Positions 22,444 through 60,997 of a DNA stretch of 64,000 bases are shown here, piece by piece; position 1 is the first letter of the stretch, and each line of letters opens with the position of its first letter. Source of the DNA: a virus (lineage: Duplodnaviria; Heunggongvirae; Uroviricota; Caudoviricetes); IMG/VR virus record IMGVR_UViG_2713896899_000007, positions 7,041 to 71,040 of that record, one strand, 5' to 3'. A model generated the notes under the pieces. The model did no database searches and was not told the DNA's origin. It saw only the letters and a list, made by a program, of their open reading frames with translations. The position numbers and the translations under genes are program-made.

Positions 22444-24003
22444 ATGACTGTTCGGATTGTATCTAACGCAGTTAATGCGCTTATTTCTGGCGCAGATGAC
22501 AAGGTAAAGCAACTGGTGCAGCAAATGTTGAGCTACGAAGTCGAGACTGGCGACTGGAAGGGCACAAGCACGATGTTCAACTGGAGTAAAAACTCGTTCC
22601 CTGCTGGCTTTGCCAAGCCTGTAGCGGCGAACTTGAACAAGGCGGGCATCAAATGTGTTCATATCCGCAAAGACAAAGCCCCGGCGCTTGGTAAACCAAA
22701 TCCGGCGGTTAACCCATTCCCATACAATCCTGATTATGCGTATCAGGATCAGACTGTGGAAACACTGGTTCGAGAGGGAATGATGATTGCGCAGATCGCT
22801 ACTGGTGGCGGGAAATCTAACGTTGCCTGCAAAGCAGCTGCACGTATCGGTCGAATGACATTATTTTTAACAACCCGCTCTGTTCTGATGTTTCAAATGG
22901 CCGAAAACTTCCAGAGATCCATCGACTACCGCGCCGAAAATGGCGAACCGTGGTTAAAAGACCAAAAGGTTGGAGTCATTGGCTCGGGTGAGTTCCAGGT
23001 ATCACGACATATCAACGTCGCTACAGTTCAAACTCTTGCAAGTTTCCTCGAAGAACCACCACGCGATGCAACACCAGATAAGAAAAGCTACCACCTCAAA
23101 CGTCGGGAGTTGGTGAAACGCTTCCTTTCAAGTGTCTCTCTTCTTATTCTGGAAGAGGCGCATGAGTCTTCAGGCTCAAATTTCTATGACATCGCCAGAT
23201 TATGTGTGAACGCAGACTATCGTCTGGCGCTTACAGCCACGCCGTTCATGAAGGATTCGACGGAAGCCAACATGCGCCTGATGGCGGTGGCCGGGCGAAT
23301 TGAAATTAAAGTCACAGAAAAGTACCTGATTGATCGAGGCATTCTGGCAAAGCCGTACTTCCTTTATCATAAAGTTGCCTACAAACCAGACGAGGCCAGA
23401 ATCAAGGCAGAACTTGCCAACAAACACCTCAATTTTAGAGTAGGTATGAGTACTGCCTACCAAAAGGCTTATCAGTTGGGGATCGTGTATAATTTGGGAC
23501 GTAACGAGGCCATTGTTCGCGAAGCATTGCTCTATAAGCAACATTCTCTCAATTGTATGACTCTGGTTCGCCTTAAACGCCACGGGCAAATCCTGATGGA
23601 AATGATGAAAGAGTCCGGCCTTAGAGTTGACTTCATCTATGGGGAATCTAACCAGGCGACAAGGCAAGCAAAGCTGAACAGTTTAGCGTCTGGAGAAATA
23701 GATGTTTTAATAGGCTCGACTATTCTGGATGTCGGTGTTGATGTGCCAAGCGTTGGTGCGGTCATTCTTGCTGGTGGTGGGAAAGCAGAAGTTGAAATGA
23801 GGCAGCGTGTCGGTCGTGGCTTACGAGCCAAGAAGAATCAGGCAAACGTGTGTTTTATCACTGATTTCATTGACACTAGCAACAAATACCTGTTGTCTCA
23901 CTCTTATGAGCGAAAACACATCATCGACACCACACCTGGCTTTGCAGAAGGTGTATTGCCTATTGATGGCGCATTCGATTTTGGAGTTCTGAAACGAGAT
24001 TAG
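22444..24003 (+). CDS. SF2 DEAD/DEAH-box helicase
   Basis: Motif I ATGGGKS, motif II LILEEAHE, motif III LTATP, motif VI QRVGRGLR. AAGGAAAGAGG RBS. Confidence 0.85.
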   Translation: MTVRIVSNAVNALISGADDKVKQLVQQMLSYEVETGDWKGTSTMFNWSKNSFPAGFAKPVAANLNKAGIKCVHIRKDKAPALGKPNPAVNPFPYNPDYAYQDQTVETLVREGMMIAQIATGGGKSNVACKAAARIGRMTLFLTTRSVLMFQMAENFQRSIDYRAENGEPWLKDQKVGVIGSGEFQVSRHINVATVQTLASFLEEPPRDATPDKKSYHLKRRELVKRFLSSVSLLILEEAHESSGSNFYDIARLCVNADYRLALTATPFMKDSTEANMRLMAVAGRIEIKVTEKYLIDRGILAKPYFLYHKVAYKPDEARIKAELANKHLNFRVGMSTAYQKAYQLGIVYNLGRNEAIVREALLYKQHSLNCMTLVRLKRHGQILMEMMKESGLRVDFIYGESNQATRQAKLNSLASGEIDVLIGSTILDVGVDVPSVGAVILAGGGKAEVEMRQRVGRGLRAKKNQANVCFITDFIDTSNKYLLSHSYERKHIIDTTPGFAEGVLPIDGAFDFGVLKRD

Positions 24004-24005
24004 TT

Positions 24006-24284
24006 ATGAGCGAAAAGAAAACAACTTATTGCCAAGTGGCATTGTCTGATAAGGCCAATGAAAAACTTGGAAAATTTCAAATAAAACTCAAAGAGAAAAA
24101 AATCAAGATGTCTAAGGCTGAAGTTATCAATGCCATTCTGGAGACGATGACTATGGCTGAATTTGACAAAGTCACATCTGCCGTTGGGGTTTCCGCTAAG
24201 ACGCGTGAGAAAATCATGCGCATCTATGAAAACTCCAATATGACAAAAAAAGATCTAGAGGAAATACTGAGCAGGTTGCCGTAA
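24006..24284 (+). CDS. small hypothetical protein (possible ribbon-helix-helix)
   Basis: 92 aa. Starts 2 nt after the helicase stop. KMSKAEVINAILE resembles an RHH helix. AT-rich. Confidence 0.4.
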   Translation: MSEKKTTYCQVALSDKANEKLGKFQIKLKEKKIKMSKAEVINAILETMTMAEFDKVTSAVGVSAKTREKIMRIYENSNMTKKDLEEILSRLP

Positions 24285-24349
24285 CATTTCATATTTACCC
24301 CCTATCAACTAATTCTATGATGTGCTCACTTGTTAGAAAGGAGCACATC

Positions 24350-24916
24350 ATGAGTTGGTTAAAAGAATTATCATTTGTTGACACCACTGGCGCTAAGAAA
24401 AATCATTCTTTCTGGAAAGTCAGCGATCCTTCTGATTTTCTTGTTGGTGCTAATGCTGCTTTTGAATTGCTTAACTTTTATCAACGTTATCCTGAAATGA
24501 AACACAGTCCACTCCTGTACAGAATAACAAACGATATGAATAGGTCTGGTTTATTATCAAGTGAGTCAGCGAAAGGCTTTTTTAGCAAAATTACGCCACA
24601 CATATCATTCGATGCAGCAAACGAAATTGATTGTCTATCCACGAAACCTCAAGAACAATTATCTGTACCACCTGAGAAAAAACAAAGACGAATTGCCAGC
24701 ATTGAAAATATATCGAAAGAGCTTCGCACAACAACGTTGAGGCTGCTGAACTTTCTTACGCTACTTAATTGGATAGATGATCAAACATTGATTCCATCAA
24801 CCGATGCGTTGGATAACAGAGTACTTAGGCTGAACAAAAAATCGCAATTTGGTTTTGTGTTCACCAAAAAAGGTGAAGATTTAATCAAAAGAAAATATAG
24901 ATTATTGAATGATTAA
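24350..24916 (+). CDS. hypothetical protein
   Basis: ATG 24350 has an AGGAG RBS. Followed by hairpin acatgcaggtg...cacctgcatgt. No recognisable domain. Confidence 0.55.
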   Translation: MSWLKELSFVDTTGAKKNHSFWKVSDPSDFLVGANAAFELLNFYQRYPEMKHSPLLYRITNDMNRSGLLSSESAKGFFSKITPHISFDAANEIDCLSTKPQEQLSVPPEKKQRRIASIENISKELRTTTLRLLNFLTLLNWIDDQTLIPSTDALDNRVLRLNKKSQFGFVFTKKGEDLIKRKYRLLND

Positions 24917-25061
24917 TAGTCTACATGCAGGTGTATGAGAGCACCTGCATGTGATATTCATCACATTTTTTGAAGTACACACCTCCGGCTGAAAAAATTT
25001 CTTGATTGGCAGAACGATATTTGTAGGCTTTTCAATTGATAACTAAGGTCGGATACTGTAG

Positions 25062-25550
25062 ATGAGTATTTCCATAAACAAAATAATTAACTCTTTACGA
25101 CATAAAATATCACATGGAAAAGATGTTCTTTTTAAAGACAAATATTATCTATTCAACCTAGAGTTGTACAAATGCACAAAATTTTATATCACTCGGAACC
25201 GTAAATATTCAGCTTCAATCACAAAAGACATGAAGAAAATCTCTTCAGAAGAGTACTTCATATCACATATTTATATCTACCCATTTAAATTAGAACCATT
25301 AAATATAATTCTTCCAACAATAAAAGGGGTTGAACTTGAAGGTTATACTTTAAGCTCTAACTTTAATGATATGGGTGTACAAAAACCAGGGACAAGGTCA
25401 TACTACGCCTACAAAGTAAAATGCAATAACTACAACGCACTTAACATGCTAATCAGCAAACTTGAAACGGAGATAGTCGAAGGAAATCTAAATGATGATC
25501 ATGAAAAATTAGAACAAATAGAAAAACTTAGAAAGTGTGATGTTAAATAA
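25062..25550 (+). CDS. hypothetical protein (Lys/Asn/Ile/Tyr-rich)
   Basis: 162 aa ORF, first gene of a 3-gene AT-rich operon. Confidence 0.5.
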   Translation: MSISINKIINSLRHKISHGKDVLFKDKYYLFNLELYKCTKFYITRNRKYSASITKDMKKISSEEYFISHIYIYPFKLEPLNIILPTIKGVELEGYTLSSNFNDMGVQKPGTRSYYAYKVKCNNYNALNMLISKLETEIVEGNLNDDHEKLEQIEKLRKCDVK

Positions 25551-25565
25551 TTGGATTATCATGAT

Positions 25566-26165
25566 ATGAAAATGAAAATTTCGTTACTCCTTGCTTGTAT
25601 ATGCCTCCCGGCGTTTTCCGCCAACGCATTATCAGATTTCGTCTCTGACATGCAAAAAACGTACAGCATGTTTACCTCCGAAGACGTAGTAGAATACAAA
25701 TCACGAGGTCTGAATCAGCCAGTTTGGTTCAGATTCTCAGACAACGCAGAAGAAACAATACTTAATGGAGGAAAAGAAAGATTACGGTTGCAAATTAACG
25801 GGACCGCTGTACCAGAAAACGTTAATGTAAACTCTGACGAAGCCATGAAGCCATCTGGAATTGTTTTAGAAGTTCAAGACGGCACACTTTACTGTGATGA
25901 AATGGCTACAACAGGTTGCCAAGTAAACATTAGGGTTGGCAATGAAGAGCCTATCGTTACTTACGCCAAGGCTGAAGGGAATACAAGTGGAAAGGTATTG
26001 TTTATCGATGAAAATATCTCAAAACGTATCGTTCGTGACATACAGAAAACAGCTAACTCTAAATCCGTCGATAAAAAAATCTATGTTGAGGTTCCCTTCT
26101 TTGTCGTTGGTAACAAAGAATTTAAATTTGGGTTGCTGAAAACACCTCTAAGAGTATCAGAATGA
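25566..26165 (+). CDS. secreted/periplasmic hypothetical protein
   Basis: The N-terminus MKMKISLLLACICLPAFSANA looks like a Sec signal peptide. ATG 25566 is preferred over TTG 25551. Confidence 0.6.
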   Translation: MKMKISLLLACICLPAFSANALSDFVSDMQKTYSMFTSEDVVEYKSRGLNQPVWFRFSDNAEETILNGGKERLRLQINGTAVPENVNVNSDEAMKPSGIVLEVQDGTLYCDEMATTGCQVNIRVGNEEPIVTYAKAEGNTSGKVLFIDENISKRIVRDIQKTANSKSVDKKIYVEVPFFVVGNKEFKFGLLKTPLRVSE

Positions 26166-26686
26166 GAACATTGGACATCACCTACGGCATACCGGCTGAA
26201 GTCTGGCCGCGAGACTACGAACATGCTGAAAACATACTTATGTTCTGGCGGAAGAACAACATTCCTGTAAGAGTCACGCTTGAAGACGGTCAGGTGTTTT
26301 GCATGTACGTTCAGGGGACAATGCCTTCCCGCAATAAGCTAGATTTATGCCCGCTTCCATATGATAAAGAAAATCGTATAAGACTCCCACTTGAGCGCAT
26401 TAGCACAATTGAATCAGGTGTAATCGATGGCATTGCTCGCGAGTTCAAAGGTAGGCTAACAATACATCCAGACTATGTTGACAATCAGCCATCACGCCGT
26501 GACTTTTTTGCGATATGTCGCAAGGCTTATCAAAACGACCAATCTATAAGGGTCTACATGGCAGACGGTCGTGAAATTGAAGGGGTGTCAAGAGGCGTTG
26601 ATGCTTGCCAGGTCACTCTTAAGTTAGAAGACGGCAGAAAAATACTTGTTTTCTTCGATTGGGTTGAACGAATCCTTCCATTTTAA
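26162..26686 (+). CDS. hypothetical protein with two Sm/LSm-like repeats (pattern level only)
   Basis: ATGA overlap with the upstream gene. VRVTLEDGQVF..YVQG and IRVYMADGREIEGVSRGVDACQVTLKLEDGRKILVFFDWVERI fit the Sm-fold pattern V.V.L.dG..i.G...g.D...l.L. Confidence 0.5.
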   Translation: MRTLDITYGIPAEVWPRDYEHAENILMFWRKNNIPVRVTLEDGQVFCMYVQGTMPSRNKLDLCPLPYDKENRIRLPLERISTIESGVIDGIAREFKGRLTIHPDYVDNQPSRRDFFAICRKAYQNDQSIRVYMADGREIEGVSRGVDACQVTLKLEDGRKILVFFDWVERILPF

Positions 26687-26697
26687 ATCTATAAGGG

Positions 26698-26728
26698 TAA
26701 TAACCGGCTAAGCCCGGTTATTATTTTA
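26698..26728 (+). terminator. rho-independent terminator
   Basis: gtaataaccgg / ccggttattat stem followed by a T-run. Confidence 0.75.
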
Positions 26729-26878
26729 CATGCCATTCATTTAAAACTCTTTCAATGCCACTCTGTATAAATATATAAGGTTAAAGGCCCGAATTGATTA
26801 TTTATTTAGGGAACACCTTCGACGATCTCGCTTTTATTTCTAGGACTTTCACCCCTGCAAAAAATTTAAAAAAAACAC

Positions 26879-26906
26879 TTGCAATCTTTTTTCACGTATC
26901 GATAAT
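26879..26906 (+). promoter_or_regulatory. sigma70-type promoter (TTGCAA-16 nt-GATAAT)
   Basis: Read directly from the sequence. About 70 nt upstream of the 26982 start, in an AT-rich gap. Confidence 0.55.
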
Positions 26907-26981
26907 TGAACTCGTCGAAAGCGAGCTGGCTAACGACAGTAAAAAATAAATTCATTTTAATTTTTCGTAAGGATGTCCATC

Positions 26982-27632
26982 ATGGCTAACATTATCATTT
27001 CTAAAAAATCCATCATTGAAGCTGCTTCCATTGTATCCGATGAACTGCGCGAAAAAGCAGATCTGGCAACTCAAACATATAACGAACATTATAAAAATGG
27101 TACGCACACTAAAGCAGACAAAGCAAATATGCAAGCTGCGACCACTAAACTTGCTTACTTCATCAACAACGTCGTAAACGCAGTAGAAGACGAAAAATTA
27201 TGCTCTGTTTTCTACTATGCGATTAAAGCAAGCAAACAAGCGCCAGAAGTATTTTTCCGTGATGCTATGACTAATAGTTATTCACTGGAAAAACTGGTTT
27301 ATCTGGTTAAATCCATTAAAGCTGGTAAATGCGTTTATTCCGTCGCTGATATGTCAGGATCTCGTGTATTCGCTTTAATCGATATGATTAACGACGAGAT
27401 CGACACGTTCACCAATGGCGCTGTTTTCGATTTAATGAATGAAGCTAAAAAAGCGTGCGAAATTAAATTGGACGCTGGCTATACTCAAGCCAACCAGTTG
27501 ATCAATCTTTGCGAACGTCTCGGACTTGTTGAAAAAGTCAAAGGAGCTGGGAGCGCCAAAGCTGGTACGCAGCAATATCGCTTCATTAAAAATGATTTCT
27601 ACAATTATTTAGCTGATGCTTTTAAAGCGTAA
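26982..27632 (+). CDS. hypothetical protein (possible C-terminal winged helix)
   Basis: ATG 26982 lies 8 nt after AAGGA. 216 aa. YTQANQLINLCERLGLVEKVKG is HTH-like. Confidence 0.55.
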   Translation: MANIIISKKSIIEAASIVSDELREKADLATQTYNEHYKNGTHTKADKANMQAATTKLAYFINNVVNAVEDEKLCSVFYYAIKASKQAPEVFFRDAMTNSYSLEKLVYLVKSIKAGKCVYSVADMSGSRVFALIDMINDEIDTFTNGAVFDLMNEAKKACEIKLDAGYTQANQLINLCERLGLVEKVKGAGSAKAGTQQYRFIKNDFYNYLADAFKA

Positions 27633-27681
27633 TTAATGAAATCAAGCGCCCACTATGGGCGCTTTAAAGGAGCTTTCAAAA

Positions 27682-27885
27682 ATGGTCAGCTATGACAAGA
27701 TCCGCGCGGAATATCGCGCAAAGTATCGCGCTTATAAACTGGAATTAATCGACGATTTGATCGCGCAACGCGACCAATTAAATTTTACGTTTTCTGATTT
27801 GCTTAACAGTAAACGAGATTGTAAGCGTAAGCGTGAATATTTACGTTTAAGCGCATTAATCGGAAAACTTCAAAATTCTATTTAA
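27682..27885 (+). CDS. small basic coiled-coil hypothetical protein
   Basis: ATG 27682 follows an AAGGAG RBS. The track start at 27655 lies inside a hairpin. Confidence 0.45.
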   Translation: MVSYDKIRAEYRAKYRAYKLELIDDLIAQRDQLNFTFSDLLNSKRDCKRKREYLRLSALIGKLQNSI

Positions 27886-27905
27886 TTTTTTTAAGGAGCT
27901 TAATC

Positions 27906-28133
27906 ATGGTTATTTTCATCTCTGGCGTAAATATCAATAATCATACTCTTGTTTATGATATTGCTGGTTTAGCTGGATATGCTCTAAGTTCTGAAGTGGT
28001 TGATGAAACAACGTTTAAAATAAACATCAATGACGTAGAACATAGAGCGCGCGTAGGAATCAATGAAGCTGATGTTACTTTAATGCTTCAAGAATTTTTA
28101 AACGCTGGCTTTAATATTCACTTAGAAAAATAA
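27906..28133 (+). CDS. small hypothetical protein
   Basis: 75 aa, AAGGAG RBS, followed by a strong terminator. Confidence 0.5.
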   Translation: MVIFISGVNINNHTLVYDIAGLAGYALSSEVVDETTFKININDVEHRARVGINEADVTLMLQEFLNAGFNIHLEK

Positions 28134-28140
28134 AAACAAT

Positions 28141-28165
28141 AGCGCCCACTATGGGCGCTTTTTTC
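28141..28165 (+). terminator. rho-independent terminator (agcgcccactatgggcgct + T6)
   Basis: Perfect hairpin plus a T-run. The identical 21-mer also occurs at 27643-27663. Confidence 0.8.
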
Positions 28166-28625
28166 GTTTACAATACACCCACCATAACGCGCCAATAATG
28201 GCGCTTTTTTATTGTCTTTAACTCACTCCAACAACATAAAAATAAGCGCCAAAATAACGCCATAGACGCGCTTTTATATCCTTGTCAGTACATACCCATT
28301 ACTTAACACATTAACGCGCTTAAAATGCGTTATATTGCGCTATAACGTATGGCTAATCATTAATTTTTATTCTTGCTATGTGATCCGCGTTTAATTGTCG
28401 GCGCGGATCGGCATTTTGTTTTGTTCCGTATCCGCTCGCGTATTATGTGCGCGTGATTTTTCACATAATCACACCACTTAATCACGTATGTGATTATGCT
28501 ACGAAAGAAATCTGGATGTCTCAGGCGACGAAAGTCATCATAATTTTCCCCGCTCACCTGTCCGACAACCGCTGGTTGGATTCCACCAGCTTCCCGATGT
28601 TTTTTCTACATAAAGGCGAATGCAG

Positions 28626-28738
28626 CCGTTTCCCGAAAAAATCCTGGCCGTTTCCCGTCGGCTCATGAATGCGTTCCTTGCCGTTTCTGAAAATTTCCCT
28701 GCGGCAGCTGGTGGCTATAGAGAAAGGGCCGTTTCTGG
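28626..28738 (+). repeat. iteron cluster A (CCGTTTCCCGAAAA-type)
   Basis: Copies at 28626, 28648 (22 bp apart) and 28681. A further copy at 28729 lies inside a hairpin. Confidence 0.6.
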
Positions 28739-28750
28739 CCCTCTTCTCAG

Positions 28751-29233
28751 TTACACGCCATCAAGGATGTGGATGCGGTTGCTTGCGTATACATTCAGCA
28801 TAAAGTTAGCGCAAAACAGTTTCCATGTATCAACGCCAGCGGTATACGTAATGTTTTTGCATTTAATTGCATTGTTGGCGATCTGCGTAGCCAGTGATAT
28901 GGCTTCATGGTCAGTAAAGCCGTATGACGTTTGGGTCTTCATCCAGACAGAAATCTGCGTAGCGAACTCAATCAGCTTGGACTGGCAGAATCGCCCGGAG
29001 CGCACCGGAAAGACGAACGTTCCGAATCCAGAATTTACCACATACGCTTTCTCAAATACCCGAGAGTAACGACGATTGCCAATGATGTCGCGTGCAATAA
29101 TGCATTTTTCTTGTTCTGACAGTTCTACCGTCTCATTGTGACGCCAGGCACCAAGTACTCGTTTTTCAATGTCAGAGAACGTTACAGCGATATTGCCATG
29201 TGCGGGTGCGTTTACAGTAGCGATAAAATTCAT
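28751..29233 (-). CDS. hypothetical protein
   Basis: 160 aa. Has its own conserved promoter (29251-29287) and a hairpin terminator (28726-28743). Confidence 0.6.
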   Translation of the reverse strand: MNFIATVNAPAHGNIAVTFSDIEKRVLGAWRHNETVELSEQEKCIIARDIIGNRRYSRVFEKAYVVNSGFGTFVFPVRSGRFCQSKLIEFATQISVWMKTQTSYGFTDHEAISLATQIANNAIKCKNITYTAGVDTWKLFCANFMLNVYASNRIHILDGV

Positions 29234-29250
29234 GATTAATTCCTTATCGT

Positions 29251-29287
29251 AAATAACAAATTGTTTTCTTGTTGGCGTTAATTATCG
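29251..29287 (-). promoter_or_regulatory. conserved early promoter/leader element
   Basis: Minus strand reads CGATAATTAACGCCAACAAGAAAACAATTTGTTATTT, a member of the roughly 10-copy family. Confidence 0.55.
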
Positions 29288-29438
29288 TTGTACGAATAAG
29301 GCGTCAAAGTGGAAAGTTGCGGTAGCCGGACGGGAACAGGTGGGTTTGTCGGTTGCCTGGAGGTAAGAGGTTGGTGTTTTTAGCCTGCGGGGAACAGGAT
29401 GGTCATTTAAGGCCACCAGCGTTAACTGGTGGCGTTTG

Positions 29439-30137
29439 TCATGCTGGAATCATATCTAATTGAAAAGATTCCATTATATATGTTGGTTCATCGATGTAGT
29501 CCTTCAGCCTATTGTCAAATGACTCAAGCGGATTGTATGGCGGATGATGCCGCTCCGAGTATTCATTTAAAAGATGCCCCATTATCAGTTCGATACCCAT
29601 CTCTACTCCTGAAACTCCGAACCATACATTGTGCGTTAGTTGCTGGGCGTCTGTATCCAGTACGCGAACGCCATCAACAAGATTTATTAGATTCCTGTGG
29701 TTTTCGTGTACTGTAACCTCTCCGCTGGTTAAGTCTATTTCAGCGAGAAAATATGGTCTTTTGCTTCCGTCGGACTTTTTGAAATGACCGTCATAAGCGA
29801 TAGCAAACCACGCTTTACTAAAGTCCTTGTTGGCGTAAGTGGTGCACATACAACTAGGATAATCATCAATGTTAAACCAATCAGGAAACGGATCATCTTT
29901 AGACGAGCCAGCAAAATCATCAGCTAGTTCGTAGCTAATGTCTGGGTTGTACTTGCTGACAAAATCATCTACATCCTCTACATCCTCAACACCTTTCCAA
30001 ACTTTACATCTCTCCGACCAAAAGAATCTCGCAATATCCGAAATGACTGGGAAACGTTTTTCAATTGAATTTATCAACTCTGCATGTTCTTTAAGAGATT
30101 TACGCTTGTTGATAAGCTTCTGAAGATGCGTACTCAT
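29439..30137 (-). CDS. hypothetical protein
   Basis: 232 aa ORF. GATAAT-type promoter at about 30165 with an upstream palindrome at 30188-30210. Confidence 0.6.
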   Translation of the reverse strand: MSTHLQKLINKRKSLKEHAELINSIEKRFPVISDIARFFWSERCKVWKGVEDVEDVDDFVSKYNPDISYELADDFAGSSKDDPFPDWFNIDDYPSCMCTTYANKDFSKAWFAIAYDGHFKKSDGSKRPYFLAEIDLTSGEVTVHENHRNLINLVDGVRVLDTDAQQLTHNVWFGVSGVEMGIELIMGHLLNEYSERHHPPYNPLESFDNRLKDYIDEPTYIMESFQLDMIPA

Positions 30138-30251
30138 TTTTAATTCCTCGTTTGTTTTTGATGTGATAATTATCGCAGTCAGATTAAGGCAGAAAACAAA
30201 TTGTTATCGGGCATAAGAAAATGGCGCGGTTTACGCGCCATTTAAAGAGGA

Positions 30252-30647
30252 TTAAGCGAATACGCTTTCAGGGATTAAGGTGTCAGCAGGAATGCCGGAG
30301 GTAATACGCAGACCGTACTGACCAATCCAGGTGGTGCTGGTGTTCAGGCTGGAGGTGAATACGGAATTAACCATATTCATCATGGTTTCAAACACCTCTT
30401 CATCAACCTGGCGGAAGTAGTTCTCGATTTTCAGCAGCAGCGGGTCAGTTGCATCGAGAATGGACTGGTATTGCGTCGCGTACTCGCCGCCGGAGGCATC
30501 ACCTTTACGCACGATCGTACTGGCCTGTACTTCGGCACCAGTTTCGGTGTTGTACGTAACAACGGTGATTTTTGCCACATTCTTACCTTCGGCGGTTTCA
30601 GAGGCATAGTAAACATCAACTGTCAGTTTTTCGCGTTTAACGGTCAT
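30252..30647 (-). CDS. hypothetical protein
   Basis: 131 aa ORF followed by hairpin aatggcgcg...cgcgccatt (30221-30243). Confidence 0.6.
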   Translation of the reverse strand: MTVKREKLTVDVYYASETAEGKNVAKITVVTYNTETGAEVQASTIVRKGDASGGEYATQYQSILDATDPLLLKIENYFRQVDEEVFETMMNMVNSVFTSSLNTSTTWIGQYGLRITSGIPADTLIPESVFA

Positions 30648-30690
30648 TTCACTCTCCGTAGTGTCTTGGTTATTTTTCTATTTTATAGCC

Positions 30691-30706
30691 GTAAGTATGT
30701 ACTTAC
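30691..30706. repeat. TAAGTA-type palindrome GTAAGTAtgTACTTAC
   Basis: Perfect 7-bp arms, upstream of the 30647 start. Confidence 0.6.
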
Positions 30707-30773
30707 AATACAAAAAAGCCCCGTAAGGATGGCGGGGCTGTCGTACTGTCGACTAATTACCACTTGCACATTA

Positions 30774-31085
30774 TCAGGCTATTGCCATCACTGATGCTCT
30801 CTGAATTTCTTGTTGGGCCACGCGGTTAACTTCCATCAAAGCCAGTTCGAGCTGATGTTCCGGCCACATTCTTTGAAATGCCACCCAGCCTTTTCCACGC
30901 TGGCGACGAACATTCATTACATAACGAGTAAAGGTGTTTTTATCGAAAGACACCGCTGTTTCACGGAACAGACGAATAGAGGTTCCATTGGCAACGATGT
31001 CCAGCAAAGTTAATTGAGCAACTAGCGCAGGCTTCTCTTTTCGCTTCTGGTCTTTGTCCAGACCAAGAACCAATGATTTTTTCAT
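30774..31085 (-). CDS. hypothetical protein
   Basis: ATG 31085 has a GGAG RBS. About 103 aa. Conserved promoter at 31095-31131. Confidence 0.55.
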   Translation of the reverse strand: MKKSLVLGLDKDQKRKEKPALVAQLTLLDIVANGTSIRLFRETAVSFDKNTFTRYVMNVRRQRGKGWVAFQRMWPEHQLELALMEVNRVAQQEIQRASVMAIA

Positions 31086-31094
31086 CACAACTCC

Positions 31095-31131
31095 GTAAAC
31101 AACTTGTTTTCTCAATGGCGTAAATAATACC
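31095..31131 (-). promoter_or_regulatory. conserved early promoter/leader element
   Basis: Minus strand reads GGTATTATTTACGCCATTGAGAAAACAAGTTGTTTAC. Confidence 0.55.
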
Positions 31132-31238
31132 AGTAAGAAAACGGCTACAAAGCATAATGATCAGGTGCATGATCGATATGCAGGTTCCTCCCTGCGGCTA
31201 TAGAGAAATTAAGCCAGCATTGCTGGCTTTGGTTGAGG

Positions 31239-31568
31239 TTACGCGAATACTTCAAGAAACTCCTGAACGTCCCAATGCTGGACAAGGTGAAGATAGACCT
31301 TAGAAATCACGTCATTCTCGCTATCGCATGTGAAGTAGTACTTCTGGCTGCGGTTGTATGTGTCCACACAAAATTCGCTCATATCCATAAAGTCAGCATC
31401 TTCTCCCATGTCGCAAATCATCAAAGCAGGTGCGTCATCACGAGTCATCAGCTCAAGCACCCACCGCGAATTGATCAGAGTGGAAGACCAACCTTCCAGC
31501 TCACAGAACTGGTCAAACTCTTTTTGAGTCAATTTCTTAATTTGGTTGATGTCGATATGTGCAAACAT
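31239..31568 (-). CDS. hypothetical acidic protein
   Basis: ATG 31568 has a TAAGGA RBS. ATG 31589 lies inside the promoter motif. Confidence 0.55.
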   Translation of the reverse strand: MFAHIDINQIKKLTQKEFDQFCELEGWSSTLINSRWVLELMTRDDAPALMICDMGEDADFMDMSEFCVDTYNRSQKYYFTCDSENDVISKVYLHLVQHWDVQEFLEVFA

Positions 31569-31578
31569 AAAGCAATCC

Positions 31579-31614
31579 TTAAACAACATGTTTTCTTATT
31601 GGTGTTATTATCGC
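31579..31614 (-). promoter_or_regulatory. conserved early promoter/leader element
   Basis: Minus strand reads GCGATAATAACACCAATAAGAAAACATGTTGTTTAA. Confidence 0.55.
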
Positions 31615-31928
31615 AATAACGCACAGGCGAAAAAGGATTTTATTCCGGTGAATGTGGTTTTGGCAGTGAGTTTTCAGGTTCAGTACCGAGTACACTTTTT
31701 ACATTATTCTGATTTAGTGGCCGAAGATGGCTGGTGGGCAGAATAATCCTCTCCCCGAAAACCTACTGAAATCGATTGTGACCCGCTGGCTGTCTGGCAC
31801 AATTACGCTGTAGCTGGGCATTCAGAGGGAATCCAGCGGTAAGTTCGCCTGCACGTGAGCGCCTCTCTTCTTACCGCACATTACAGGTGGGTAGCCGCAA
31901 CTCTCCCTCACGCTATACCGGTACGCCA

Positions 31929-32060
31929 CCGTTCCTGAACCGGCATCGAGCCTTTTCCCGAAATCCACACAGGCAACTCTACCGTTTCCCTGAAAATCCC
32001 CAGCCGTTCCCCGAAGGCAACCCAGCCGTTTCTGTAGCGGGATGCAGCCTTTCCCTGTAT
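31929..32060 (+). repeat. iteron cluster B, six copies phased at 22 bp
   Basis: Copy starts at 31929, 31951, 31982, 32004, 32026 and 32048. Consensus is cAGCCGTTTCCCtGAAAA. Confidence 0.75.
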
Positions 32061-32119
32061 GGACCGAAGGCTGACCGTAGGGGTGTTACGGGGGATAAAA
32101 TCAGGAGTTGAATAAATAC

Positions 32120-32990
32120 GAAAAAGGAGGCGACACCCCTACTTCCCTCTCCACTTATACATACCAGGCTTCTTCGCTATACATGTTGTGTTTTCTTCGT
32201 GTTTTATCTGTCTCAACCTCTCTATAGGCGTTAATGCTCACTCCTACCAGAACGTTCTATACGGCGACTATTTCTGTTGGTGGATTAGGTGTGTTGTTTT
32301 CTCTGTCGGTGTATGTGGTTTCGTTCGTTTTGCGGTGGTTCTTCTATGGGGTGTTCTCGTCGTTTTGGTGATTGTTCTTCTCCGTATATGGAGTAATGGC
32401 AGGTGGGCGATTGCTTTCGTTATTGTGTTTGAGTTGTTTGTCTGGAGTGTGTGAAAGGCTTTTGTAGTTATTCGTGTATTGGGTAATGGCGTTTCCCGTG
32501 ATTGTTATGTTTCGTGTCTTTTGGGATTGAGAGAAACCTTGCGGTTACAGGCTTCGTTGGGGTTTCAGTGATTCTGGTGTTTCTTCGCTGTTTGGGGAAT
32601 GGCGTGTCGTGGGTATCGCGCGTGTGAATGTTTTCGGATTGCCTGTGAAAGTTAGGTTGGTTATCCGGTAGCCTGGGAAGAAGAGGTGGGTCTTTTCGGT
32701 AGCCTGCCATAAAGAGGTTGGTTGTTTTTGGGAATGGCATGTGTGTTATTTAGTTGTTTTGTTATGCCTGAAAATAAGTTGTTTATATGGTTGTGTAACG
32801 CAACGGGAGCGATTTTGAGCGTGTGTTTTTGTTGGTAGTGTGTTGAGTCGTCTGTGGTGAAAATTGGACGCTGTGGAGCTGTCTGCTGCGTAGGATTACG
32901 GGTATAAGAAGTGATGTGTGAAAACGTCAATTTTTTAGACCAAATCGGGAGAAAGCGTTGATGTTTCGTTGATCTGTTATTTAGTTGTTT
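32120..32990 (-). ncRNA. candidate long C+A-rich untranslated transcript (hypothetical)
   Basis: A family promoter at 32974-33006 points into a stretch with no credible ORF. The plus strand is 72-85% G+T in the three 60-nt lines I counted. The ends are not defined. Confidence 0.25.
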
Positions 32991-33006
32991 TCTTATTGGT
33001 ATAAAC
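32974..33006 (-). promoter_or_regulatory. conserved early promoter/leader element with no downstream ORF
   Basis: Minus strand reads GTTTATACCAATAAGAAAACAACTAAATAACAG. A partial second copy lies at 32745-32765. Confidence 0.5.
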
Positions 33007-33136
33007 AACTGTAACCTATTGATATTTAAGGATGTGATTGCAGGCATGGAAGGGGAGTAGTGGCGATCAACGGATTCTTATAGAAAAGAATCAAATTGTG
33101 ACCGCCATTATCAACGGTTTGAATATGTTTGCAGAT

Positions 33137-33436
33137 TTACCAGTTCCAGCACTCAAGCCCTTCAACGACCGGCGCACCACAATCAAAATGTACAGAGTCA
33201 AAGCCTACATCAAGTACTTTCTGAATGTTAGCAATCGCGCCTTCGGATATACCATATCGACGCAAGTCGTCTTTCCAGACATCATCCTGTAACCCGGCGT
33301 GGACAATACAACCGCCATCAATTTGTGAAACCCAATCCAGCTCATTGCTTGCGATCATGAATCGGCGAGCATCTTCCTCTGATGTATGAGATGAACTGAT
33401 CAATGCCACCTGGTAGGCTTGGGTAATGTTCAACAT
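33137..33436 (-). CDS. DUF5983-like small protein (recollection of plasmid/prophage family)
   Basis: The ALISSSHTSEED...VHFDCGAPVVEGLECWNW pattern (ISTSH...HFD....L.G...W end) fits the family as I recall it. ATG 33436 has a GGAG RBS. Confidence 0.55.
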   Translation of the reverse strand: MLNITQAYQVALISSSHTSEEDARRFMIASNELDWVSQIDGGCIVHAGLQDDVWKDDLRRYGISEGAIANIQKVLDVGFDSVHFDCGAPVVEGLECWNW

Positions 33437-33447
33437 TTCAACCACTC

Positions 33448-33517
33448 CAAAACAAGTTGTTTTCTTATGTGGCTTATTATCTCTAACAACAAAAGGCAGA
33501 AAACAAATTGTTTTAGG
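33448..33517 (-). promoter_or_regulatory. early promoter with two AAAACAAnTTGTTTT palindromes flanking GATAAT
   Basis: Minus strand reads CCTAAAACAATTTGTTTTCTGCC...GAGATAATAAGCCACATAAGAAAACAACTTGTTTTGG. Confidence 0.6.
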
Positions 33518-33636
33518 TACTGTGTAAATCAGAAGGGATTGTGTCTATATGAAAATGCCCGGCGTGTTGCCGGGCATTGCGAAGAGAGGTTGTTTAATTA
33601 CTTAACCTGGTGGCCAGGTTTAGCACCGGCATCCGG
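33496..33636 (-). repeat. diverged copy of metG 3' end (12 codons + stop) + terminator + phage palindrome
   Basis: Aligns without gaps to 34364-34504 with 18 mismatches. The remnant encodes [12 protein letters not shown]. Confidence 0.9.
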
Positions 33637-34315
33637 CTGCAGGATGGGAGGTTACGTTCGCGCTATGTTGATATTCTGATTGACGCCATTTGTGCCAAAT
33701 CATCTCCTTATAGGATTCATATTGCGTTCGGTACTCTGGCTTCAAGTCAGATATGCCTTTATTCACTACCGCTCGTACGTTTACTAATAATTCGTGCTCA
33801 ATGCCTTTACTCTCTAAATATTCTACAACACCAGCATCGGGGCCAATTGCCCTGCCGTTAAAGACCATTTCCAGCATAAGCTCTGTTTCAGCAAAATAGA
33901 TAGGTGAGGAACCAGGTGCACACAGCTTAATAGCAGTAAGATTGTCCAACAGGTCGGCCAATTTAATCATTCGCGTCTGCATATCCAACGTCTTTTGCAA
34001 TTCGCGAACATTAATAATGAATCTCGCAAGACTATCGCCGTCGTCTGGTTTGGCAACGTTTGCCAGCGCCAGTACCATCTCAGCTACACGATTCCCGAAA
34101 TACTCGCGTACCATTTCGATAGTGATATGGGTATCTTCAATAACACCATGTAATAATGCAGCAGCCTGCATTTCGACAGTGCCTCCGTGCCAAGCAACAA
34201 TCTCACGCACAGAAACTGGGTGTGTAACGTAGTCTTCCCCCGTATATCTACGCTTCTTACCTACACCACCATACACTCCAACGGCAAACATATGAGCTTT
34301 ATCAACAATCGACAT
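33620..34315 (-). CDS. HD-domain (SpoT/Mesh1-like alarmone hydrolase family) protein, HD motif changed to HG
   Basis: GEDYVTHPVSVREIV...AALLHGVIEDT. Paralog of 42687..43328. ATG 34315 has a GGAG RBS. The C-terminal tail runs into the metG remnant. Confidence 0.75.
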   Translation of the reverse strand: MSIVDKAHMFAVGVYGGVGKKRRYTGEDYVTHPVSVREIVAWHGGTVEMQAAALLHGVIEDTHITIEMVREYFGNRVAEMVLALANVAKPDDGDSLARFIINVRELQKTLDMQTRMIKLADLLDNLTAIKLCAPGSSPIYFAETELMLEMVFNGRAIGPDAGVVEYLESKGIEHELLVNVRAVVNKGISDLKPEYRTQYESYKEMIWHKWRQSEYQHSANVTSHPAAGCRC

Positions 34316-34363
34316 AATTTGCTCCATTATTTTGTTAATACTGTTACTCTAACTGATAATAGA

Positions 34364-34504
34364 ACGCAGAAAACAAATTGTTTTAGGGGCTGAGTAAATC
34401 AGAAGGGATTGCGTCTATATGAAAATGCCCAGCAATACGCTGGGCATTGTGAAGAATGGTTGTTTAGTTACTTAACTTGGTGGCCTGGTTTAGCACCAGC
34501 ATCC
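34364..34504 (-). repeat. phage palindrome + metG terminator + metG 3' end (partner of 33496-33636)
   Basis: See the alignment for the partner repeat. The terminator stem is aatgcccagc/gctgggcatt (34422-34446). Confidence 0.9.
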
Positions 34505-36501
34505 GGGCTTAACAGGAAGATATCTTTCCCGCCGGGGCCAGCAGCCATCACCATGCCTTCGGAGATACCGAAGCGCATTTTACGCGGAGCCAGGTTAGCC
34601 ACCATAATTGTGTGACGACCAATCAGTGCCTGTGGGTCTGGATAAGCAGAACGGATGCCTGAGAAGACATTACGCTTTTCACCACCGAGATCCAGTGTCA
34701 GGCGCAACAGTTTGTCAGAACCTTCAACAAACTCCGCGTTTTCAATCAGCGCCACACGCAGGTCAACTTTGGCGAAGTCGTCAAAGGTGATGGTTTCCTG
34801 AATCGGGTCGTCAGCCAGTGGGCCAGTAACTGGCGCGGCAGTAGCTTTCACTTCTTCTTTGGATGCTTCCACCAGTGCTTCCACCTGTTTCATATCGATA
34901 CGGTTATACAGTGCCTTGAACGGATTCACTTTATGGCCCAGCAGCGGTTGCTGGATACCATCCCAGGTCAGTTCTGTATTCAGGAATGCTTCTGCACGTT
35001 CAGTCAGTTTCGGCAGTACCGGTTTCAGATACGTCATCAGCACGCGGAACAGGTTAATGCCCATAGAGCAAATCGCCTGCAGATCTGCATCGCGACCTTC
35101 CTGCTTCGCCACCACCCACGGAGCCTGTTCATCGACATAGCGGTTAGCCAGGTCAGCCAATGCCATGATTTCACGGATAGCTTTACCAAATTCGCGGCTT
35201 TCCCATGCTTCGCCAATCACTTCAGCGGCATCAGTAAAGGTTTTGTACAGTTGCGGGTCAGCCAGTTCGCTTGCCAGCACGCCGTCAAAACGCTTGTTGA
35301 TAAAGCCTGCATTACGGGAGGCCAGGTTAACCACTTTGTTAACAATATCGGCATTCACTCGCTGAACGAAATCCTCCAGGTTGAGATCGATATCATCAAT
35401 GCGCGAAGAGAGTTTCGCAGTGTAGTAGTAACGCAGGCTGTCAGCGTCAAAATGATTCAGCCAGGTGCTGGCTTTAATAAAGGTGCCGCGAGACTTGGAC
35501 ATCTTCGCACCGTTCACCGTCACATAGCCATGAACAAACAGGTTGGTCGGCTTGCGGAAGTTGCTGCCTTCCAGCATGGCAGGCCAGAACAGACTGTGGA
35601 AGTAAACGATATCTTTACCGATGAAGTGGTACAGCTCGGCGGTGGAGTCTTTCTTCCAGTATTCATCGAAGCTGGTGGTATCGCCGCGCTTGTCGCACAG
35701 ATTCTTGAAGGAACCCATGTAGCCAATCGGTGCGTCCAGCCAGACGTAGAAATATTTACCCGGCGCGTTCGGAATTTCAAAACCGAAGTAAGGTGCGTCG
35801 CGGGAGATATCCCACTGTTGCAGACCAGATTCAAACCACTCCTGCATTTTGTTTGCCACCTGCTCCTGCAACGCACCGCTGCGGGTCCATGCCTGCAACA
35901 TTTCGCTGAAAGAGGGCAGATCAAAGAAGAAGTGTTCAGAATCACGCATTACCGGGGTAGCACCAGAAACCACCGATTTCGGCTCGATCAGTTCAGTCGG
36001 GCTGTAGGTCGCGCCACAAACTTCACAGTTATCGCCGTATTGATCTGGCGCTTTACATTTCGGGCAGGTGCCTTTCACAAAACGATCCGGCAGGAACATG
36101 CCTTTTTCCGGGTCGTACAACTGAGAGATAGTGCGGTTTTTAATAAAACCGTTCTCTTTCAGGCGAGTATAAATAAGCTCAGACAGCTGGCGGTTCTCTT
36201 CGCTGTGCGTCGAGTGATAGTTGTCATAGCTGATGTTAAAGCCTGCGAAATCAGTCTGGTGTTCCTGACTCATTTCGCCAATCATCTGCTCCGGTGTGAT
36301 ACCAAGTTGCTGTGCTTTCAGCATGATCGGCGTACCGTGGGCATCGTCGGCACAGATGAAATTAACCTCGTGGCCGCGCATTCGCTGGTAACGAACCCAG
36401 ACATCAGCCTGGATGTGCTCCAGCATATGGCCGAGGTGGATTGAGCCGTTAGCGTACGGCAGCGCGCACGTCACCAGAATTTTCTTCGCGACTTGGGTCA
36501 T
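34468..36501 (-). CDS. metG: methionine--tRNA ligase
   Basis: 677 codons from ATG 36501 ([25 protein letters not shown]...KMSKS...). Near-identical to E. coli MetG as I recall it. The 43-codon upstream extension in the track is spurious. Confidence 0.97.
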
Positions 36502-36658
36502 AGTAGGCATTACTTCTTTGTAGTGAAAAGGGGCTTGATAGTAACAAAATGGCCTTATGTCTGCCATGTGATAACAGCATTTCTCATAAATGATTAAATG
36601 TCGTAGCTGGAGTACACTACAAGGCGACAATTGCGCAAATTAAAATAAAGGAGACGGG

Positions 36659-60418: not shown

Positions 60419-60988
60419 TCAAATGAGAGACTTAAGAACATCGCGCACCTGGCGGAACTGATCCGTTTGCATACCGGTATGGATGGCAGCCACCGCATCA
60501 GCCAAATGTTCGTTTTTGTTCACGAGAACATCCTGTCCAGATTGCTTACGACGCAGCCACGGTGCTTTAGGGTGTTTTTTCGTAGCCCACTGGATAATCT
60601 CTTCTTTCGATGTAGTAAGTTTATTGCCGACAAAATGCTTAATTTCGTTTGGAGTAACCTGGATCAATGGCTTATCCACACACGCAAGTACACCGATACA
60701 AATACCGTAAGACGTCTGCGAACGAGAGTTTTGGCTCCCAACCGGTAGCTCACAAAAAACCATATTTGCCTTATCAATGATTGGCTTCGCAACACGCCAT
60801 ATTTCACTGGCCCGGCGCAGATCGTCACTGTTCACACGAACGGTCTTTTTGTTACTCCCCGCTTTAGTCTCAACAAGAGTAAGGCCGTTAATCTCAAGTT
60901 CGTCCGTCTCAAGGTCTAAAGTGCCCACAGCAAGCCCAAAGTTGCTCATTGAGGGATCAACACCAACTACGCTGATTTTTTTACTCAT
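60419..60988 (-). CDS. RuvC-like Holliday junction resolvase
   Basis: VGVDPS..., ...CELP... and NEHLADAV acidic motifs in RuvC order. Confidence 0.65.
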   Translation of the reverse strand: MSKKISVVGVDPSMSNFGLAVGTLDLETDELEINGLTLVETKAGSNKKTVRVNSDDLRRASEIWRVAKPIIDKANMVFCELPVGSQNSRSQTSYGICIGVLACVDKPLIQVTPNEIKHFVGNKLTTSKEEIIQWATKKHPKAPWLRRKQSGQDVLVNKNEHLADAVAAIHTGMQTDQFRQVRDVLKSLI

Positions 60989-60997
60989 ATAGTCTCC

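What the first reader, a model, noticed from the sequence alone, without database searches (positions are those of the whole stretch)
28134..28750. 600-bp convergent gap packed with hairpins, AATCAC/GTGATT inverted repeats and the second iteron cluster
The gap lies between the end of the plus-strand island and the stop of the minus-strand gene 28751..29233. It contains:
- five GCGC-core hairpins (28141, 28189, about 28245, 28312, 28382);
- an 18-bp palindrome TAATCACGTATGTGATTA (28479-28496), with further GTGATT (28453) and AATCAC (28467) half-sites;
- iterons at 28626, 28648 and 28681;
- a terminator whose stem itself contains ccgtttctgg.

This is far more structure than two convergent terminators need. 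It suggests a cis-acting site such as an origin, an incompatibility locus or a partition locus.
Basis: seen in the sequence. Interest (0 to 1): 0.55.

Follow-up and report, generated by a model that had tools for sequence, protein, structure and literature searches.

The report
Conserved iteron-bearing gap in phage-plasmid
A 617-bp stretch without genes in an SSU5/pHCM2/pMT1-type phage-plasmid is as conserved as its flanking genes; it holds transcription terminators and one of four arrays of a short repeated motif, probably docking sites for an unidentified DNA-binding protein, and it is neither the plasmid's known replication origin nor next to its partition genes.

Summary
The window is E. 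coli plasmid p009_B, an SSU5/pHCM2/pMT1-type phage-plasmid. The gap 28134-28750 is real. It keeps its size (590-690 bp) and sequence in 785 plasmid records, and is as conserved as the flanking genes. It has no conserved ORF and no Rfam hit.

Confirmed beyond chance:
- hairpins at 28141, 28189 and 28382;
- the AATCAC/GTGATT inverted repeat;
- GCCGTTTCY repeats at 28625, 28647, 28680 and 28728;
- the minus-strand terminator.

The hairpins near 28245 and 28312 are not above chance. The 18-bp palindrome exists only in the closest E. coli relatives.

The repeats are invariant across the family. They recur as a six-copy, 22-bp-spaced array at 31929-32054. An inverted relative of the motif forms arrays at 29323-29403 and 32639-32727. 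These four arrays are the only ones in the 110-kb plasmid.

RepA and its different iterons lie 37 kb away. A ParA-type locus lies 40 kb away.

Best reading (confidence 0.4): tandem terminators plus an array of sites for an unidentified protein that regulates the bracketed 160-aa gene and small-gene operon. A second, phage-mode origin is not excluded (0.2).

The parts
27906..28133 (+). Last gene (75 aa, phrog_1585) of the AT-rich plus-strand island; left border of the gap
28141..28166 (+). Hairpin 1, AGCGCCCA-cta-TGGGCGCT plus a T6 run. It is an intrinsic terminator that can act in both directions. A copy lies at 27645-27663.
   Evidence: z -4.7. Stem invariant and loop variable in 49 relatives.
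28189..28212 (+). Hairpin 2, GCGCCA-ataa-TGGCGC plus a T6 run; second plus-strand terminator in tandem with hairpin 1
   Evidence: z -3.2. Stem invariant and loop variable.
28213..28378 (.). AT-rich conserved block (GC 0.32-0.40) with weak GCGC inverted repeats near 28245 and 28325 and the conserved words AAAAATAAGCGCCA and GTACATACCCATTAC. Function unassigned.
   Evidence: z -1.25 and -0.67: the hairpins are not significant
28379..28414 (+). Hairpin GATCCGCG...CGCGGATC with a T-rich tail. It is present in the E. coli clades only. The GTGATCCGCG left arm is conserved everywhere.
   Evidence: (z -3.7)
28420..28560 (.). Mosaic central segment that differs between clades. It holds GTGATY sites (28380, 28453, 28467, 28480, 28491), the 18-bp palindrome 28479-28496, and TGTGATTAT on the minus strand (28473-28465), which resembles an extended -10 promoter element.
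   Evidence: (34 of 49 relatives)
28602..28617 (.). Conserved word TTTTCTACATAAAGGC, which abuts the first iteron. It is unique in the plasmid.
28625..28690 (+). Array A2: three iterons with core GCCGTTTCY at 28625, 28647 and 28680 (spacing 22 and 33 bp). Consensus cCTGGCCGTTTCCcGAAAAttt.
   Evidence: The core is invariant in 49 relatives.
28718..28748 (-). Intrinsic terminator of the 160-aa gene. Its stem and loop (GGGCC-GTTTCT-GGCCC) carry a fourth copy of the core.
   Evidence: z -3.8
28751..29233 (-). 160-aa gene (phrog_1641), found only in SSU5-like elements. It is bracketed by arrays A2 and B1, which makes it the candidate binder. This is inferred, not shown.
29323..29403 (-). Array B1: three copies of the inverted relative of the motif (ACCnaCCTsTTnCCnnCAGGCTA). 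It lies between a terminator hairpin (29433-29412) and a TTGACG/GATAAT promoter-like pair (29307-29281).
   Evidence: (conserved in all relatives including pMT1)
31929..32054 (+). Array A1: six iterons, with spacing 22, 31, 22, 22 and 22 bp, in the same orientation as A2. It lies upstream of the small-gene operon.
32639..32727 (-). Array B2: three B-type copies spaced about 31 bp apart
   Evidence: (B1 against B2: 77% identity over 64 nt, E = 5e-7)

Best explanation
The gap is a composite non-coding module with three parts.

1. Left end. Two tandem intrinsic terminators (28141, 28189) end the AT-rich plus-strand island. The first can also stop minus-strand transcripts.

2. Right end. The terminator of the minus-strand 160-aa gene is followed directly by array A2, three phased iterons. 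A2 is one of four arrays of one motif family: A2, B1, A1 and B2. A arrays point one way and B arrays the other.

I infer that these are docking sites on double-stranded DNA for one sequence-specific protein of the phage-plasmid. The bracketed 160-aa ORFan protein is the first candidate. Bound arrays would act as operators or insulators. B1 sits just upstream of the -35 element of the 160-aa gene. A1 sits upstream of the small-gene operon. A2 lies behind the terminator, where it could pair with B1 by looping or block read-through into the convergent island.

3. Centre. This segment is swapped between clades and carries GTGATY sites and clade-specific palindromes. It looks like a second operator set with exchangeable specificity, possibly with a leftward promoter.

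Shown: the anatomy, conservation, phasing, uniqueness and positions. Inferred: protein binding, the identity of the binder, and the regulatory outcome.
For: - Repeats far above chance, and 22-bp phasing, which is two helical turns.
- Cores invariant across 49 gap sequences that are otherwise 61-96% identical.
- Both A arrays are conserved in SSU5, pHCM2, Klebsiella, Enterobacter, Citrobacter and Salmonella Anatum.
- B arrays are the inverted relative of the motif and occur nowhere else in the plasmid.
- B1 lies between a terminator hairpin and a conserved TTGACG/GATAAT pair upstream of the 160-aa gene.
- pMT1 has lost A1 and B2 but keeps B1, the gene and A2 intact.
- The gap is as conserved as the flanking genes. 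For SSU5 against Klebsiella the identities are 0.88 (219-aa gene), 0.88 (gap) and 0.74 (160-aa gene).
- No conserved ORF.
- Terminator stems are invariant while their loops vary.
- Outside coding DNA, only the RepA arrays and this gap hold exact 8-mers repeated three or more times within 200 bp.
Against: - No binder is identified. Neighbouring proteins have no Pfam, NCBIfam or functional PHROG assignment.
- A2 lies downstream of its gene, which is unusual for an operator.
- A1 is about 300 bp from the nearest promoter-like site.
- The promoter assignments are only consensus matches.
- Constant spacing could simply reflect origin by tandem duplication.
Confidence: 0.4

Rival explanations
1. The arrays belong to a second origin, used in the phage (lytic) mode or as an alternative replicon, with its control locus. 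They would bind a so far unrecognised initiator, with iterons flanking its gene as in P1 oriR-repA-incA or mini-F ori2-repE-incC. Here the arrangement would be B1, 160-aa gene, A2.
For: - The repeats are iteron-like in length and 22-bp phasing, and each unit carries an A-tract.
- Arrays lie on both sides of a small conserved gene in opposite orientation.
- The left half of the gap is AT-rich.
- The element encodes its own helicase, primase, Pol III alpha, ligase and SSB, and no lytic origin is described.
- No other iteron-like array exists in the plasmid.
- True origin iterons of lambdoid phages share the 8-mer CCGTTTCC at 22-bp spacing.
Against: - No Rep-family domain is found in any neighbouring gene.
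- The 160-aa model shows no winged-helix match.
- DnaA boxes are not enriched.
- The site is where transcription converges, not where it diverges.
- There is no GC-skew turn at this position.
- RepA with its own arrays already accounts for plasmid replication.
Confidence: 0.2
2. The arrays are centromere-like partition sites, bound by the 117-aa partner of the small ParA or by the ParB-N-domain proteins encoded 6 kb to the left.
For: - Centromeres of type Ib and type II partition systems are arrays of short repeats, sometimes in two sets. This rests on established knowledge of pB171 parC1/parC2 and R1 parC (PMC2241845, listed).
- I saw no obvious repeat array in the 180 bp upstream of parA.
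- pMT1 retains A2 and B1.
Against: - The ParA-type operon is about 40 kb away.
- The ParB-N-domain genes show no copy of the motif in their own control region.
- pMT1 has a P1/P7-type parABS next to repA (from my own knowledge of Youngren et al. 2000; I did not read the paper here).
Confidence: 0.1
3. The elements act in RNA. On minus-strand transcripts the A units read GGGAAACGG, giving GGA motifs of the kind CsrA binds, and the B units read CCUGUUUCCCG, which is complementary to the A units. They would then form a sponge, a leader or a long-range pairing system. Alternatively, the centre of the gap encodes a small RNA transcribed leftward from TGTGATTAT.
For: - There are several GGA-containing units per array, and B is complementary to A.
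- An extended -10-like TGTGATTAT is present in 34 of 49 relatives.
- Minus-strand terminator-like hairpins lie at 28261 and 28159.
- The gap as a whole has strong folding z-scores.
Against: - No conserved structure beyond the terminators is seen in a 49-sequence alignment.
- The stems within units are no better matched than in permuted controls: 3.21 against 3.19.
- A2 lies behind a strong terminator.
- There is no Rfam hit.
- Y. pestis RNA-seq lists only two pMT1 small RNAs, and both lie elsewhere.
- Conservation extends over the whole 9-nt core, more than CsrA would need.
Confidence: 0.12
4. The gap holds nothing beyond terminators. The rest is a conserved linker, kept by recent common descent or because it serves as a homologous-recombination boundary for swapping modules.
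For: - The element is clearly a mosaic. The central segment, and the genes between the arrays, are swapped between clades while the flanks stay the same.
Against: - Conservation holds across genera at the same level as coding DNA.
- The repeat cores are invariant, whereas the spacers between them vary.
- Four phased arrays of one motif family cannot be explained by descent alone.
Confidence: 0.1

Closest known systems
Iteron arrays of theta-replicating plasmids and prophages (P1 oriR/incA, mini-F ori2/incC, RepFIB, R6K gamma origin)
   Same: - Direct repeats of about 20 bp, phased at 22 bp.
- More than one array.
- Arrays on both sides of a small gene.
- High conservation of the core.
   Different: - The sequence is unrelated to this plasmid's own RepA iterons.
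- No Rep-family gene lies between or beside the arrays.
- DnaA boxes are not enriched.
- There are four arrays of alternating orientation spread over 4.1 kb.
Operator arrays of plasmid global regulators that double as centromeres (omega protein heptads WATCACW of pSM19035; ParR and ParG sites)
   Same: - Short repeats in direct and inverted orientation, placed at several transcription units.
- The GTGATY/AATCAC word of the central segment even matches the omega heptad. This comparison is from my own knowledge.
   Different: - Omega heptads are contiguous at 7-bp spacing. Here the GTGATY sites are 13-70 bp apart.
- The hosts are unrelated.
- No ribbon-helix-helix protein was identified.
Origin iterons inside lambdoid phage O genes
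   Same: They share the 8-mer CCGTTTCC at 22-bp spacing (loci L020, L030, L039).
   Different: - Lambdoid units are dyads (ATTCGGC-N6-GCCGAAT type) lying inside an O-like gene, next to GATC-rich 13-mers.
- The SSU5-type units have neither feature, and the flanks show no homology.
- This is a chance overlap of a short word.
Tandem and bidirectional Rho-independent terminators at convergent gene ends
   Same: Hairpins 28141 and 28189 and the hairpin 28718-28748 have GC stems followed by T runs. Their stems are invariant and their loops vary.
   Different: These account for only about 100 of the 617 bp.

Membership tests
Iteron-type plasmid or phage replication origin | Tandem direct repeats of 17-22 bp in helical phase | tested here: met
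   Spacing is 22 and 33 bp in A2, and 22, 31, 22, 22, 22 bp in A1. There are 5 pairs at exactly 22 bp, against 0.013 expected.
Iteron-type plasmid or phage replication origin | Cognate initiator (Rep) gene adjacent, or identifiable elsewhere in the element | tested here: not met
   No Rep family is found for any gene from 25551 to 31589 in Pfam, PHROGs or NCBIfam. The 160-aa model has no winged-helix match. The rest of the plasmid was checked only through its annotation.
Iteron-type plasmid or phage replication origin | AT-rich unwinding element and DnaA or IHF sites next to the iterons | tested here: inconclusive
   The AT-rich block 28200-28380 lies 250 bp from A2. DnaA boxes are not enriched: there is one relaxed match at 28457, and it lies in the clade-specific segment.
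Iteron-type plasmid or phage replication origin | Supports autonomous replication | not testable with these tools
   This needs a mini-replicon assay or marker-frequency analysis.
RepA (IncFIB-type) incompatibility or copy-control locus | Repeats have the same sequence as the iterons of the RepA origin | tested here: not met
   The RepA iterons read AAGTATGCTGYCAGCGGTG and flank repA at record positions about 110062 to 1563. The gap motif is GCCGTTTCY.
Partition centromere (parS or parC) | Lies adjacent to its parA/parB operon | tested here: not met
   The ParA-type gene is at record positions 32236-32904, about 40 kb away. The 366-aa 'MinD' protein is Mrp/NUBPL.
Partition centromere (parS or parC) | Bound by the centromere-binding protein; stabilises a plasmid in cis | not testable with these tools
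   This needs a binding assay and a stability assay.
Rho-independent terminator | GC-rich hairpin followed by a U run, with the stem conserved | tested here: met
   Met for 28141 (both strands), 28189 (plus strand) and 28718-28748 (minus strand).
Small regulatory RNA gene | Promoter, terminator, conserved structure or a known family, and a detected transcript | tested here: inconclusive
   A promoter-like TGTGATTAT is present in 34 of 49 relatives. There is no Rfam hit and no conserved structure. No small RNA is listed at this locus in Y. pestis pMT1 RNA-seq.
Lambdoid O-protein origin iterons | Dyad-symmetric units lying inside an O-like initiator gene | tested here: not met
   Only the 8-mer is shared, with no dyad partner and no O gene.

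The most novel reading that the evidence does not exclude
The unit B1 array, 160-aa gene, A2 array (about 28625-29403) is a self-contained module that pMT1 retains on its own. In it, an ORFan protein with an unrecognised fold binds inverted iteron arrays on both sides of its own gene. It would serve as the initiator and copy-control module of a second, phage-mode replicon of SSU5-type phage-plasmids. That would make it a new initiator class, with A1, the GT-rich spacer and B2 as its origin proper.
Probability: 0.12. Interest if true: 0.8.

Novelty: new variant of a known kind. Interest (0 to 1): 0.5.

Why it matters
SSU5/pHCM2/pMT1-type phage-plasmids are among the most common phage-plasmids of Enterobacterales. 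They include plasmids of the plague and typhoid bacilli and carriers of resistance genes. How they switch between plasmid and phage modes, and how their early genes are controlled, is not described in the papers I could search.

A four-array motif system that is invariant across genera marks where an uncharacterised regulator or initiator acts. It gives a precise, testable handle: about 20-bp sites, one 160-aa candidate protein, and a natural partial deletion in pMT1.

If the arrays are a second origin or a centromere, they would also matter for incompatibility typing and for copy-number-driven resistance.

Tried and rejected
- **Rfam.** Gathering threshold on the whole window and E-value mode on 27500-33500: nothing credible. 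No tRNA or tmRNA.
- **Hidden protein gene.** Open frames differ between clades, and none is conserved.
- **Conserved RNA structure.** Alifold on 49 sequences, both strands: only the three terminators survive. The test for hairpin covariation within units was negative.
- **DnaA boxes.** Not enriched.
- **Same motif near repA.** Absent; the RepA iterons are different.
- **Viral-contig scan with CCGTTTCC-N14-CCGTTTCC.** About half of the loci listed are SSU5-like. Of the 20 unrelated loci I inspected, most are lambdoid O-gene origins that merely share the 8-mer.
- **Genome scan with the 15-mer GCCGTTTCCCGAAAA.** It returned only scattered single hits, as chance predicts. This scan was wasted.
- **The 131-aa protein.** No PDB sequence hit.
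- **'MinD' as a partition ATPase.** It is Mrp/NUBPL.
- **Y. pestis small-RNA lists.** The two pMT1 small RNAs map near ymt, not to this gap.
- **Other site families, compared by eye only.** Xer/dif-like, Tus/Ter, sigma-54, sigma-28, CRP and Fur sites: no convincing match, not pursued.
- **Papers I could not read.** Lindler 1998 (pMT1 sequence) and a 2026 preprint on heteroresistance mediated by phage-plasmids.

Full report
**Identity of the window.** The window is 100% identical to E. coli plasmid p009_B (NZ_CP048306.1, 110,182 bp). Window position = record position - 43,984. It is 92-95% identical to Escherichia phages Cyrano, PhiR41_1 and CMS-2020a. It is related to Salmonella phage SSU5, Klebsiella SSU5-like phages, S. 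Typhi pHCM2 and Y. pestis pMT1. It is therefore an SSU5-type phage-plasmid.

**The gap is real and conserved.**
- A 75-aa gene ends at 28133 on the plus strand, and a 160-aa gene ends at 28751 on the minus strand.
- The same unannotated interval of 590-690 bp separates the same two gene families in every relative examined.
- 785 plasmid records match the interval.
- Nucleotide identity of the gap equals that of the flanking genes. For SSU5 against a Klebsiella plasmid it is 0.88 for the 219-aa gene, 0.88 for the gap and 0.74 for the 160-aa gene.
- Open reading frames in the gap differ from clade to clade, so no protein gene is hidden there.
- Rfam and ARAGORN find nothing.

**Check of the observation.**
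- *Hairpins.* Those at 28141, 28189 and 28381 are significant (z -4.7, -3.2 and -3.7). Those near 28245 and 28312/28325 are not (z -1.25 and -0.67). The whole gap folds much better than shuffles on both strands (z -5.9 and -5.1). Terminator-like sites are enriched: 16 against 6.0 +/- 2.4.
- *Terminators.* Hairpins 28141 and 28189 have invariant stems, variable loops and T runs in 49 relatives. They are tandem terminators of the AT-rich plus-strand island. The first is duplicated at 27645 and can also act on the minus strand.
- *Inverted repeat.* The AATCAC/GTGATT inverted repeat is exact. GTGATY is strongly clustered: 5 sites in 117 bp. The 18-bp palindrome, however, is confined to relatives that are about 95% identical. 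The segment 28420-28560 is swapped between clades. Other clades carry a different palindrome there, and still keep three GTGATY sites and, in 34 of 49 sequences, TGTGATTAT on the minus strand.
- *Iterons.* The repeats at 28625, 28647 and 28680, and the copy in the terminator at 28728, are confirmed and far above chance.

**What the iterons belong to.**
- In the whole plasmid, the core CC[GT]TT[TC]C clusters only twice. One cluster is in the gap. The other is at 31929-32054, with six copies spaced 22, 31, 22, 22 and 22 bp on the same strand.
- Both arrays are conserved in SSU5, pHCM2, Klebsiella, Enterobacter, Citrobacter and Salmonella Anatum plasmids. pMT1 has only the gap array, because an IS element and a deletion removed the other.
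- The core is invariant while the spacers between cores vary.
- A second repeat type reads ACCnaCCTsTTnCCnnCAGGCTA on the minus strand. It occurs only at 29323-29403 and 32639-32727, three copies each, spaced 28-31 bp.
- Its core CCTGTTTCCCGCAGG is the inverted relative of the gap core CCGTTTCCCGTCGG. One A1 unit even fits the B pattern.
- The order along the plus strand is therefore: A2 (in the gap), the 160-aa gene, B1, four small genes, A1, 580 bp of GT-rich non-coding DNA, then B2.
- B1 is conserved in all relatives, including pMT1. It lies between a terminator hairpin and a TTGACG/GATAAT pair upstream of the 160-aa gene.

- RepA lies about 37 kb from the gap (Cyrano 60633-61688). In p009_B it spans the record start. 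It is flanked by arrays of AAGTATGCTGYCAGCGGTG, the classic origin plus incompatibility layout, and that sequence is unrelated to the gap motif. A published analysis of pKPHS1-type plasmids, which resemble SSU5, also places the predicted iterons next to repA (PMC6735626).
- A 222-aa ParA-type ATPase with a 117-aa partner lies about 40 kb away. The 'MinD' gene near the region is Mrp/NUBPL.
- DnaA boxes are not enriched.
- No neighbouring gene has a Rep, ParB or other DNA-binding family assignment.
- The gap is therefore not the RepA origin, not its incompatibility locus, and not adjacent to the par operon.

**Mechanism.**
- Invariant 9-bp cores, helical phasing (about 21 and about 31 bp), arrays in both orientations, and B1 placed directly upstream of a promoter-like pair all fit best with binding sites on double-stranded DNA for one dedicated protein. 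That protein would control the 160-aa gene and the small-gene operon. A2 behind the terminator would serve as a looping partner or a roadblock.
- The candidate binder is the bracketed 160-aa protein. Its family occurs only in these elements. Its confident AF2 model matches no known fold, so this step is inference only.
- RNA-level readings were tested and found weak. There is no conserved structure and no matched stems within units. A2 lies behind a strong terminator. No small RNA is reported at this locus in pMT1.
- A second, phage-mode origin remains a serious rival. The layout of array, small gene and inverted array resembles the origin, rep gene and incompatibility locus of P1 and F (this comparison is from established knowledge). 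No other iteron-like array exists in the plasmid.

**Novelty.** I found no description of these arrays in the searchable literature. In kind they are iteron or operator arrays. They do not fit any defined family, because they lack a Rep gene, differ in sequence from the RepA iterons, and form four arrays of alternating orientation. I therefore rate them a new variant of a known kind, of moderate interest.

Noticed in passing
window 29323-29403 and 32639-32727: A second repeat family reads CGGTAGCCTG..AGAGGTKGGT on the plus strand, with three copies in each array. It is the inverted relative of the gap iteron. Its CGGTAGC-TG core also resembles the RfaH ops element GGCGGTAGCGTG (from my own knowledge), but it lies on the strand opposite to the local genes.
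   Followed up: partly
window 31590-33143, especially 32150-32900: A 1.57-kb stretch with no gene in the PLSDB gene table, which omits pseudogenes and RNA genes. It shows extreme strand asymmetry: GC skew +0.305 and AT skew -0.35. It is GT-rich on the plus strand and CA-rich and G-poor on the minus strand. Arrays A1 and B2 bracket part of it. It could be a Rho-loading leader or an R-loop-prone region.
   Followed up: partly
window 26162-26686 (+): A 174-aa protein is a full-length member of PF03614 (FljA, repressor of phase-1 flagellin; E = 5e-81), with a weak Hfq/LSM-like C-terminus. It is conserved in all relatives 1.5 kb left of the gap. This means a phage-plasmid encodes a likely post-transcriptional repressor of host flagellin.
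   Followed up: no
window 29255-29287 and 31582-31613: The 160-aa gene and the first gene of the small-gene operon share a 33-nt promoter and leader segment, GATAAT...CCAAYAAGAAAACA (85% identity).
   Followed up: partly
window 24000-28400: An AT-rich island (GC 0.35-0.40, against about 0.47 elsewhere) on the plus strand. The same GCGC-stem hairpin AGCGCCCACTATGGGCGCT lies between its last genes (27645) and after them (28141).
   Followed up: partly
window 54738-54771: AAATGCAC occurs three times within 34 bp (54738, 54756, 54764). It is one of the very few other short tandem motif clusters in the plasmid.
   Followed up: no
p009_B record positions about 110062-110134 and 1096-1563 (outside the window; loci L015, L016): The repA gene is flanked on both sides by arrays of AAGTATGCTGYCAGCGGTG iterons, the P1/RepFIB-type layout of origin plus incompatibility locus.
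   Followed up: yes
window 33620-37759: A block of auxiliary host-like genes: an HD-domain protein, methionyl-tRNA synthetase, and an Mrp/NUBPL iron-sulfur carrier ATPase that some records annotate as MinD.
   Followed up: partly
IMG/VR loci L020, L026, L030, L033, L039, L042 and others: Unrelated lambdoid phages carry origin iterons (ATTCGGC-N6-GCCGTTTCC, 22-bp period) inside O-like genes, next to GATCTGT repeats. They share the 8-mer CCGTTTCC with the SSU5-type motif.
   Followed up: partly
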